A stretch of 64,000 nt of DNA from Haliotis cracherodii (lineage: Eukaryota): assembly GCF_022045235.1 (NCBI RefSeq), contig NW_027266267.1, positions 27,094,001 to 27,158,000 on the forward strand. The letters run 5' to 3'. Within the stretch, counting starts at the first letter, position 1. Each line of letters opens with the position of its first letter. The notes under the pieces are model-generated. The model did no database searches, was not told where the DNA came from, and saw nothing but the letters and a program-made list of their open reading frames with translations. Position numbers and translations under genes: made by a program. Below are positions 52,559-55,133 of this stretch, in pieces.

Positions 52559-55133
52559 ATGGAGCTCATGGTTAAAATTGTTTTAGTCATGTTTGGACTC
52601 TTTTCTGGTGAGTATTAATTTCTGTTCTGAATCAATCGGCACACTAAACCGAAACAAATGATATGTTGCTCGAATGAACTTTGGAATAAGGCAACACTTG
52701 CCAAACATCCATCTATCCAATAGAACACTATGTGTGAGAGCAAACCATGAACTAGCTTTATACATTGTACACACTGTCGTGAAAAGATAGATTTCGCTTT
52801 GACTCCAGTTGCATAGAATAATGATAATGTTTCGAATGAGCACCCGTGAAGGTGACAATGCTTGTCGTGAGATGCGACTAACGGGATCGGGTGGTATTCT
52901 CGCTGACTTTGTTGATGCAAGTCATCGTATCCCAATTGCGTGGATCGATACTTATGATATCAATCACTGGATTGTCTGGTTCAGATTATTTACAGACAAG
53001 CGTCATATAGCTGGAATATTGCTGAGTGAGGCGTTCAACAACAAACAAATAATTATGTCAATCTCTGGATTGTCTGGTCTAGAGTCGACCATCAACAGAC
53101 CACCGCCATACGATTTGAATATTTCTGAGTGAGGTGACAGCCTAAAAAGGAACAAAGACCATTTGATGTTCCAAGGGTTGGAATGTTGGGTGGTCAGCCT
53201 TTCAAAGAAGCCGGACATTTCTTTTCAAGACATCCAGTTTGTCCATTAAAAATGAGGCAAAATTATTTCCCTTCCAGTATTATCTGGAACATTGTGTATT
53301 TCACTTCCAAGCATTTCAAAGCCTTGGTAACGTGTGACATAATTTGTTTAAACAAGCGTTTACAGATTGGAACTTCTTAACCATTAATGAACATTCAAAT
53401 ACAATACAGTAAACTACGGTTATAACGAACTCAAAGGGACCATCAGTAGTAAATCGTTATAACCGTAGTTCGTTATAAGCGTATATACAGCAAATGGTCG
53501 GGACAAAACAAAACAGTACGTTACATCCGTCAGTTCGTTATAAGCGTGTTCGTTATAAGCGTAGTTTACTGTATGTATCTCTACATATCTATGGATACAG
53601 GTATGACTTCATTTCAGGTACAACCCTCGTGTACATCGTGGCCAGCCTTGAGTGCGGTGTTCTCGTCACCATCATTGTCCTCCTCCTGTACCTCAGAGGG
53701 AAACGACGTCATCGCAATGCAGGTAACAGACCAGGGACTGTCTGACTATCGCGCTTTTAGCACTATTTCATTAATATCAAGGTAGGGGTTGAGGGTTCGA
53801 TTCCATACATTGCACCCGCGAAGATAATAGAACCCAGGCCTTCTGTGTGATGAATGCTTTAACCACAAAGATACCCCATCACCTGTACAACCTAATAGTA
53901 GTATGCAAATGAAGGCACTGAAACATGAAACCGAAATATTTAAGACCATGTTACATAAATTTATTTACTATGGCGATAATTATATCGAAATCTGTGAGAT
54001 TAGTTATGGCTTTAAGTAATATTATTAGGGGGACTGTGGTAATGGCTTCTTACAATAAACCCATATTGAGATTCGAATCAGGTCCTCGTCGTGACGAACG
54101 GCATAAACCCCTATGCTACCCAGCTTTCCTTGACATCAACTCACAACCAAAATATTCCATCGTTAATTGAACTGAACATACTAATGTAATTCAACATTTA
54201 AATACTGATGCTTTCGCAAAGAAAGTCCAAGAATGATTAATGTAATCATTGATTTTCTTGGTATTTAGTTTATATTCTGTTTCAACGATAAATATATAAA
54301 CTCAAGAGCATGGGCGCCGCTGCCAAACATAAAACAATGTTATGTCTGATGTCATTATTAATCCCGTGGACGTTGGTTGTAAGAGGTCAATGACTGGATC
54401 GGGTGGTCAGTTTCGGTGACTTGGTTTAAAGCGTGTTAAAGTACCCCGACGGCGGGGAACGTTGCTCATATCAATCACTGGATTGTCTAGTACTACTAGT
54501 ACTACAACGATGCTACACCTTTATTAAAATAAGCCAATACGAAACTGTAGGTTATATCTCTTTACAGACATGTTAAAGTACCCCGACGGCGGGGAACGTT
54601 GCTCATATCAAACACTGGATTGTCTAGTACTAGTTTTTTTCAGGCGACCGTCATATAACTGAAAGATTGAGCTTTTAACAACGACGCTACACCTTTATTA
54701 GAATAAGCCAATACGAAACTGTAGGTTATATCTTTTTACAGACATGTCACTCTTGGCTAATGGAGCGTCTCTCTGCAACCCAGAATCTTCCTCAGGGAAT
54801 ATGTACACCGAGATCGGACCTTCTAAAGCACCCCTCCAACAGACTGACAGTAACTCTTCGCACCTCTACAGTTCAATAGCACCACGTGCCACGGGGACAA
54901 ACGATGACATCCAGACGAATGCAAACAGAGAGTCCTCTCTGCCCACCAACGCCACTGGGTACATCGACATGACGTCAAACAACGTCACCACGTCAGTTGA
55001 CGCCATCACTCAGCACCTCTATTCTGACGTCCCTCGAGAGACACCGGCTGTTACAAACAGCCGTTTACAAAACCCTGTGTATGAGAACATAGAGGAGGAT
55101 TACATCAATGAGGCGTTTGAGGATGTGGACTAG
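52559..55133 (+). CDS. Small-ectodomain type I membrane protein with Tyr-motif-rich tail (transmembrane adaptor-like, ~203 aa)
   Basis: Exons 52559-52607 (MELMVKIVLVMFGLFS), 53278-53326, 53601-53722 (TM LVYIVASLECGVLVTIIVLLLYL-RGKRRHR) and 54742-55133 (ORF 54744-55133). GT-AG sites, phases 1/2/1, 612 nt open. Confidence 0.65.
53407..53571. mobile_element. Tc1/mariner (pogo/Tigger-like) MITE, 165 bp
   Basis: 24-bp TIR CAGTAAACTACG(G/C)TTATAACGAAC with 23/24 match, TA on both flanks, internal GTTCGTTATAA subrepeats. Confidence 0.85.

What the first reader, a model, noticed from the sequence alone, without database searches (positions are those of the whole stretch)
52559..55133. Head-to-head neighbour looks like a transmembrane signalling adaptor
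Seen: signal peptide, ~18-20-aa ectodomain (ISLPSISKPWYDFISGTT), TM containing Glu-Cys, basic stop-transfer, and a ~140-aa S/T/N-rich tail with YTEI, YSSI, YIDM, YSDV, YENI and YINE. An alternative splice from 52607 to 53618 is also in frame and removes the ectodomain entirely. Known: this layout is that of vertebrate transmembrane adaptors (LAT, PAG, TRIM, SIT; the acidic TM residue recalls CD3zeta/FcRgamma). It is transcribed divergently, 5.4 kb from the receptor array. Inference: a linked receptor-plus-adaptor immune signalling locus; homology to vertebrate adaptors is not claimed.
Basis: partly seen in the sequence, partly recalled or inferred. Interest (0 to 1): 0.7.

Follow-up and report, generated by a model that had tools for sequence, protein, structure and literature searches.

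The report
Abalone ectodomain-less tyrosine scaffold family
Abalones carry a small family of spliced genes for predicted membrane proteins with almost no outer part but a tyrosine-studded inner tail, so they likely act as signalling scaffolds like vertebrate immune adaptors, although a partnership with the neighbouring antibody-fold receptors is untested and poorly supported.

Summary
The gene is real, but it has three coding exons, not four. Contigs from 4 of 4 runs laid join exon 1 straight to the membrane exon and that to the tail exon. RefSeq holds the same 181-aa model as an uncharacterised Haliotis protein. The proposed ectodomain exon is unsupported. It is one of four paralogs in this genome, with relatives in two other abalones, all lacking an ectodomain exon. 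The membrane Glu is kept in 7 of 8 sequences, three tyrosines in 8 of 8, and the Cys in only 4 of 8. No credible relative was found outside Haliotis. Best reading: a convergent, non-palmitoylated LAT/LAX/TRIM-like scaffold, probably derived from an Ig receptor that lost its ectodomain. The CD3zeta/FcRgamma idea fails its tests: there is no ITAM, the neighbouring receptors carry Asp and their own tyrosine tail, and 0 of 35 sampled Ig-receptor membrane exons have a core basic residue. Head-to-head linkage is weak evidence: the nearest receptor looks broken, no paralog repeats the arrangement, and the contig is full of Ig genes.

The parts
52559..52607 (+). Coding exon 1 (16 codons + 1 base): start Met and short hydrophobic segment, signal-peptide-like. 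A pyrimidine tract and AG end at 52553, so a non-coding exon probably lies upstream.
   Evidence: Met invariant in 7 of 7 aligned proteins; AG 5 bases before the aligned ATG in all four paralogs. Cleavage not tested.
53278..53326 (+).
   Evidence: Skipped in 4 of 4 runs, absent from RefSeq model and from the paralog intron; some cover in one run's bin
53618..53722 (+). Membrane exon (phase 1/1): about 23 hydrophobic residues with Glu28 (codon 53650-53652) and Cys29, then a basic stop-transfer run; second acceptor at 53601
   Evidence: helix 17-53 in a low-confidence model
54742..55133 (+). Tail exon: S/T/N-rich, predicted disordered; Tyr73, 94, 125, 145, 165, 172 (YTEI, YSSI, YIDM, YSDV, YENI, YINEAF)
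   Evidence: Tyr94, 125, 145 kept in 8 of 8 sequences
55134..55449 (+). Likely 3' untranslated region (at least this far)
   Evidence: Contigs of X9 (54739-55303) and X7 (55130-55449)
40785..47151 (-). Nearest Ig receptor gene (signal, V, second Ig-like domain, membrane exon with Asp, tail with YETP, YDAL-x10-YEKI, YQNM); its V exon lacks the last ~18 codons and the splice donor, so it is probably broken in this assembly
30485..36388 (-). Second receptor of the array; V exon complete and predicted as a V-type Ig fold; membrane exon with Asp; own tyrosine tail
1..3298 (-). Third receptor of the array (runs off the window start)

Best explanation
This is a spliced, conserved abalone gene for a 181-residue protein with no ectodomain exon, a predicted single membrane helix and a six-tyrosine tail, which likely works as a ligand-blind signalling scaffold of the LAT/LAX/TRIM type. 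Shown: the three-exon structure, a four-member family, conservation of Glu28 and three tyrosines, and purifying selection in most paralog pairs. Inferred: (1) it sits in the plasma or endosomal membrane with zero to a few residues outside; (2) Src- or Syk/Shark-type kinases, switched on by separate ligand-binding receptors with their own tyrosine tails, phosphorylate it; (3) the phosphotyrosines dock SH2 proteins (YIDM fits the recalled PI3K p85 motif, YENI and YINE the recalled Grb2 motif), while the terminal YxNxAF fits a recalled PTB/FERM sorting motif; (4) Glu28 mediates helix packing with itself or an unknown membrane partner. It probably arose within the abalone lineage when an Ig-receptor gene lost its phase-1 ectodomain exons; it is not a homolog of vertebrate adaptors.
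For: Direct splice of exon 1 to the membrane exon in 4 of 4 runs from 4 studies; identical RefSeq model and relatives in H. rufescens and H. rubra. Four paralogs share the layout. Glu28 in 7 of 8 sequences, Gln in the eighth; 3 of 6 tail tyrosines invariant over five lineages against 13 of 123 other positions, p = 0.025; dN/dS 0.39-0.55 in 5 of 6 paralog pairs, p < 0.005. 5 of 6 tyrosines are YxxI/V/M, p = 0.0006. Tail without predicted structure or Pfam domain. This meets the structural definition of transmembrane adaptors (PMC3342071, PMC2803307, passages read). The genome has 47 SH2 matches, and an oyster Ig receptor signals through ITAM and Syk (PMC6994640, passages). Origin: the family membrane profile scores Ig-receptor membrane exons on the same contig at 32.9, 25.8 and 22.8 bits, and the best of them finds three family members in return, weakly (E 0.12-2.5). 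Lead only: nearest Atlas clusters include SCIMP, GAPT and LIME1, all under 0.9.
Against: No protein, phosphorylation, binding, tissue or co-expression data. Window versus closest paralog dN/dS is 0.70, not significant (p = 0.14), and deep pairs are near saturation. The Grb2-type and terminal motifs are labile: Tyr165 is in 5 of 8 and Tyr172 in 5 of 8 sequences, the terminal motif being lost by frameshift or truncation in the rest. No CxxC, ITAM or ITIM in the window protein. The membrane-start motif is partly generic: an unrelated sushi-domain gene scores 15.3 bits, and neither the first-exon nor the tail profile finds a receptor relative, so the origin is suggestive only. The 5' end of the transcript is not mapped. 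The runs come from related organisms about 95% alike and are only guessed to be RNA.
Confidence: 0.58

Rival explanations
1. It is a charge-paired signalling subunit (CD3zeta/FcRgamma/DAP12-like) that assembles through Glu28 with a ligand-binding receptor, perhaps the head-to-head Ig array.
For: Glu28 kept in 7 of 8 sequences over deep divergence; near-zero ectodomain; two of four paralogs lie inside an Ig-rich stretch. DAP10-type subunits use a YxxM-type motif instead of an ITAM (PMC4536121, passage), and YIDM/YIEM is kept in 5 of 8 sequences.
Against: Such subunits pair with receptors that usually hold a basic membrane residue (PMC4536121). The array's membrane exons hold Asp in 3 of 4 found and no basic residue, and have their own tyrosine tail. 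0 of 35 membrane exons found in 40 sampled loci of a second Ig family (89 matches) have Lys or Arg in the core. No ITAM; no extracellular Cys; Cys29 in 4 of 8. One orthologue has Gln for Glu. Other receptor families were not examined.
Confidence: 0.12
2. It is an ectodomain-less receptor remnant kept as a damper or sorting factor: it competes for kinases, phosphatases or SH2 proteins, or steers partners through endosomes by YxxPhi and YxNxxF sorting signals, rather than building an activating complex.
For: YxxPhi is also the recalled clathrin-adaptor sorting motif; the terminal YxNxAF matches a recalled PTB/FERM motif in 5 of 7 full-length proteins. Exon shuffling of tails and ectodomains is visible in this cluster. 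Two paralogs carry ITIM-like matches.
Against: Several spaced tyrosines are conserved with flanking residues, more than sorting needs; the terminal motif is lost in the second C4 paralog and sits in another frame in the C18 copy; the C18 copy has multiplied a tyrosine unit.
Confidence: 0.22
3. It is the 3' part of a larger receptor whose ectodomain exons lie upstream, or a decaying, non-functional fragment.
For: A conserved splice acceptor sits 5 bases before the ATG, in frame for a phase-1 upstream exon; X7's contig has about 145 bases before the ATG that were not located.
Against: The Met is invariant in 7 of 7 proteins; RefSeq models in three species start there; no longer relative among 89 candidates (weak); no long frames or matching Ig exons on the + strand in the 5.4-kb gap; purifying selection.
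Confidence: 0.08

Closest known systems
Non-palmitoylated transmembrane adaptor proteins LAX, SIT, TRIM (and the wider class LAT, NTAL, PAG, LIME, SCIMP, GAPT)
   Same: Very short outer part, one membrane helix, non-enzymatic tail with several tyrosine motifs; no CxxC, as in LAX, SIT and TRIM (PMC2803307, PMC3342071, passages read).
   Different: No sequence homology; conserved intramembrane Glu; no extracellular Cys for a TRIM-type disulfide dimer; found only in Haliotis; phosphorylation and partners untested.
ITAM-type transmembrane signalling subunits (CD3zeta, FcRgamma, DAP12, DAP10)
   Same: Signal-peptide-like start, minimal outer part, acidic membrane residue, one YxxM motif.
   Different: No ITAM, longer tail with tyrosines about 20 residues apart, Cys not conserved, no basic-residue partner in the loci sampled.
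Botryllus fester / fester co-receptor pairs (PMC12065747, passages read)
   Same: Invertebrate precedent for a receptor encoded beside its signalling partner, with YxxI/L/V core motifs.
   Different: The co-receptor has an ectodomain and fester lacks signalling motifs; here the neighbours have their own tails and pairing is not repeated by paralogs. That review calls LAT absent in ascidians.
Invertebrate Ig receptors with ITAM tails: oyster CgIgR (PMC6994640) and Hydractinia Alr (PMC9546547), passages read
   Same: Model for the neighbouring receptors: V-type Ig fold, tail with paired YxxL/I.
   Different: These are receptors, not adaptors; the neighbours' 10-residue spacing fits the x6-12 definition in PMC6994640 but not the x6-9 definition in PMC9546547.

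Membership tests
Transmembrane adaptor proteins (structural class) | Extracellular part of only a few residues | tested here: met
   Direct exon 1 to membrane exon splice, 4 of 4 runs; at most 19 residues before the helix, 0-3 if the first segment is cleaved (cleavage untested)
Transmembrane adaptor proteins (structural class) | Single membrane helix | tested here: inconclusive
   One clear hydrophobic helix; the first segment is short and is polar in the C78 and C18 copies, but topology was not measured
Transmembrane adaptor proteins (structural class) | Non-enzymatic tail with several conserved tyrosine motifs | tested here: met
Transmembrane adaptor proteins (structural class) | Phosphorylated by Src/Syk kinases and binds SH2/PTB proteins after receptor triggering | not testable with these tools
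   Needs cells or peptides; the genome has 47 SH2 matches
Palmitoylated adaptors (LAT, NTAL, PAG, LIME) | Juxtamembrane CxxC | tested here: not met
   None after residue 42 in 7 of 7 proteins scanned
Vertebrate adaptor gene families (homology) | Sequence similarity to LAT, PAG, TRIM, SIT, SCIMP or others | tested here: not met
   No such hit; Atlas feature scores under 0.9
CD3zeta/FcRgamma/DAP12 signalling subunits | Acidic residue in the membrane helix | tested here: met
   Glu28 in 7 of 8 sequences
CD3zeta/FcRgamma/DAP12 signalling subunits | ITAM | tested here: not met
   No YxxL/I-x6-12-YxxL/I in 7 of 7 proteins; a loose Met variant in the two C78-type proteins only
CD3zeta/FcRgamma/DAP12 signalling subunits | Partner receptor with a basic membrane residue | tested here: not met
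   0 of 4 array exons and 0 of 35 found in 40 sampled Ig loci; other receptor families not examined
CD3zeta/FcRgamma/DAP12 signalling subunits | Disulfide-linked homodimer (recalled feature) | tested here: inconclusive
   No extracellular Cys; intramembrane Cys29 in 4 of 8 sequences
Linked receptor/co-receptor pair (fester type) | Gene pair kept together and co-expressed | tested here: inconclusive
   Arrangement not repeated by three paralogs; the H. rufescens orthologue and its paralog both lie on a contig of the same length but neighbours were not visible; co-expression not tested

The most novel reading that the evidence does not exclude
Abalones independently invented a vertebrate-style split between ligand-binding receptors and dedicated signalling chains: an Ig receptor shed its ectodomain, gained a membrane glutamate, and founded a family of adaptors (one with about 30 tandem tyrosine units) that assemble with receptors of the large Ig cluster and set their signalling output.
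Probability: 0.17. Interest if true: 0.82.

Novelty: new variant of a known kind. Interest (0 to 1): 0.5.

Why it matters
Ligand-blind transmembrane adaptors are characterised in vertebrate leukocytes; one review calls LAT absent in ascidians (PMC12065747), and eight literature searches here (search listings) showed no description of a molluscan one. If this family does scaffold signalling, it shows the design arising again by simple exon loss from a receptor, and gives four testable genes in a farmed and a threatened shellfish group. The architecture itself is known, the genes are already annotated as uncharacterised, and function is unshown, so interest is moderate.

Tried and rejected
Four-exon model: rejected. 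Run search: no holder is on record as RNA; the splice evidence rests on exon-to-exon joins at GT-AG ends in contigs, and contigs cannot give level, strand or tissue. The first read-laying was swamped by repeats and showed no useful joint rows. Complex prediction of two copies of residues 14-54: no answer, score 0.15 against a mark of 0.32, no evidence either way. Structure prediction of the whole protein was low confidence, mean pLDDT 48.5; no fold search was run on it. Longer relatives of the tail: none among 89 candidates. Profile search of 1.84 billion proteins: 4 hits, 2 family members, a bacterial repeat protein and a killifish Ig receptor matched over membrane and tail at E 1e-4; the last two are read as compositional matches. 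Pfam found no Ig match for the array's domains; the Ig call rests on the V-domain model and fold search, and the second domain was not folded. The Atlas could not read the V domain. A candidate upstream donor at 51583 is not kept in the paralog, so the leader exon stays unlocated. A C43 hit proved to be the membrane exon of an unrelated sushi-domain gene. A shuffle control for the specificity of the membrane-exon similarity was not completed, so that similarity rests on the ranked scores. Earlier notes near this place or by sequence: none. Supplements of papers were not read.

Full report
Source and gene model. The tail matches RefSeq XP_071095184.1, an uncharacterised Haliotis cracherodii protein, at 100%; the window is G000:C4:27,094,001-27,158,000. 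Joining 52559-52607, 53618-53722 and 54742-55133 gives exactly that 181-residue protein, with GT-AG introns.

Splicing evidence. Four runs from four studies, of related organisms about 95% alike and only guessed to be RNA, were laid on the membrane exon. In 4 of 4 the contig runs from exon 1 straight into the membrane exon and from its end at 53722 into 54742. X7 and X9 use the 53618 acceptor. X2 and X3 use the upstream acceptor in a 5-base-shorter, in-frame form. None holds the proposed exon, which also lies in a stretch missing from the closest paralog. Against this, X2 has some cover in the bin 53188-53298, so a minor isoform remains possible. All four paralogs keep a pyrimidine tract and AG 5 bases before the aligned ATG; with the invariant Met I read this as an intron in the 5' leader, whose upstream exon I did not locate.

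Family. Genome searches found three paralogs: C4 27.50 Mb, C78 47.59 Mb and C18 7.59 Mb; two further searches added none. Each has the same short first exon, membrane exon and single tail exon; the first two match RefSeq models. Relatives exist in H. rufescens (93% identical, all six tyrosines kept) and H. rubra (61%). A word-based search with the alignment found 7 proteins among 2010 candidates, 5 named as Haliotis and 2 unnamed assemblies. A full profile search gave 4 hits, two of them weak and unrelated.

Conservation. Over eight sequences: Glu28 in 7 (Gln in 1), Cys29 in 4, Tyr73 in 6, Tyr94, Tyr125 and Tyr145 in 8, Tyr165 in 5, Tyr172 in 5. Over five lineages, 3 of 6 tyrosines against 13 of 123 other tail positions are invariant (p = 0.025). 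dN/dS is 0.39-0.55 in 5 of 6 paralog pairs (p < 0.005, deep pairs near saturation) and 0.70, not significant, for the closest pair (the C18 repeat was left out of the alignment). 5 of 6 tail tyrosines are YxxI/V/M (p = 0.0006). The window protein has no ITAM, ITIM or CxxC; it has YxxM, two YxN, one NPxY and a terminal YxNxAF (the binding partners assigned to these motifs are recalled). The model shows two helices, 2-14 and 17-53, and no structure beyond, at low confidence.

Neighbours. The array encodes signal, V, second Ig-like domain, membrane and tail exons. The V domain models at pLDDT 88 and matches nanobody V domains. The membrane exon holds Asp in 3 of the 4 copies found, with no basic residue, and the tail has YETP, YDAL-x10-YEKI and YQNM, so these receptors can plausibly signal alone, like oyster CgIgR (PMC6994640, passages). 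The copy nearest the finding has a V exon that loses its last 18 or so codons and its donor. The second C4 paralog points the same way as the next V-type receptor 68 kb downstream and was duplicated together with a mucin-stalk membrane gene, not with a head-to-head receptor. The C78 copy has no match to this receptor family within about 100 kb either side but lies about 45 kb from EGF-repeat genes. A second Ig family has 80 of its 89 matches on C4, from 7 to 38 Mb, so closeness to Ig genes is expected on this contig.

Search for a charge partner. I took 10 kb behind 40 of those 89 matches. A membrane exon was found in 25 by a strict rule and in 10 more by a relaxed one; 5 gave none. None of the 35 has Lys or Arg in the core; one has Glu, and one uncertain exon has Arg near its outer edge. 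Vertebrate signalling subunits pair their acidic residue with a usually basic one (PMC4536121, passage). Other receptor families were not screened.

Origin. The family membrane profile scores a single-Ig receptor's membrane exon at C4 29.35 Mb at 32.9 bits and two others at 25.8 and 22.8, the rest at 18.4 or less. The top exon was first picked up by a family member, so it is a selected case; its reverse search returns three family members at weak E-values. An unrelated gene scores 15.3, so part of the likeness is generic. First-exon and tail profiles find no receptor relative. Loss of phase-1 ectodomain exons is therefore a likely but unproven origin.

Mechanism and verdict. The anatomy meets the structural definition of a transmembrane adaptor (PMC3342071 and PMC2803307, passages), of the non-palmitoylated kind. 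I put 0.58 on a phosphotyrosine scaffold acting downstream of separate receptors, 0.22 on a damping or sorting role, 0.12 on a charge-paired subunit and 0.08 on a fragment. An immune role is inferred from context only. The literature searches cover open-licence full text only and listed no molluscan transmembrane adaptor; absence from print is not established. Verdict: a real, uncharacterised, abalone-restricted family; a new variant of a known kind; interest 0.5.

Noticed in passing
G000:C18:7,586,045-7,591,308 (L081, L082, L074): Fourth paralog, 800 aa in my model, whose tail exon holds a 45-base in-frame minisatellite (96% matches) giving 29 LYTDA, 2 LYIDA and 8 His-variant units; the terminal acidic motif lies in another frame. 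Other frames of the repeat are also open, so openness alone is no sign of function; expression unknown.
   Followed up: partly
window 46264-46225 (- strand): V exon of the nearest Ig gene ends in a deletion that joins it to a decayed copy of the next domain; that decayed, repeat-filled copy sits between V and second domain in all three window genes.
   Followed up: partly
G000:C4:27,183,000-27,192,000 and 27,508,000-27,523,000 (L016, L045, L046): Gene duplicated together with the adaptor-like gene: small S/T-rich stalk exons, a membrane exon and, in the second copy, tail exons homologous to those of the V-type receptors, suggesting tail shuffling.
   Followed up: partly
G000:C4:7-38 Mb: Very large Ig receptor complex: 80 matches of one Ig family on this contig, clustered at 12.4-13.0, 33.6-34.1 and 35.2 Mb.
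   Followed up: partly
G000:C4:27,622,386-27,626,406 (L089): Three tandem V plus second-domain pairs in one run, possibly a six-domain receptor.
   Followed up: no
window 4973-13052 and 19997-25318: Long LINE-type reverse-transcriptase frames, two of about 1265 aa in tandem, and a third element with an upstream ORF, inserted between Ig genes (identification recalled from motifs).
   Followed up: no
window 13700-18240 (- strand): Two long frames (637 and 895 aa) that look like a large DNA transposon; a decayed copy lies in L019.
   Followed up: no
L145 (G000:C4:12,414,500): One Ig-family-linked membrane exon with a Glu in the core, the only charged core among 35.
   Followed up: no
G000:C78:47.63-47.65 Mb (L064-L066): EGF-repeat genes with very long single exons about 45 kb from the C78 paralog.
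   Followed up: partly
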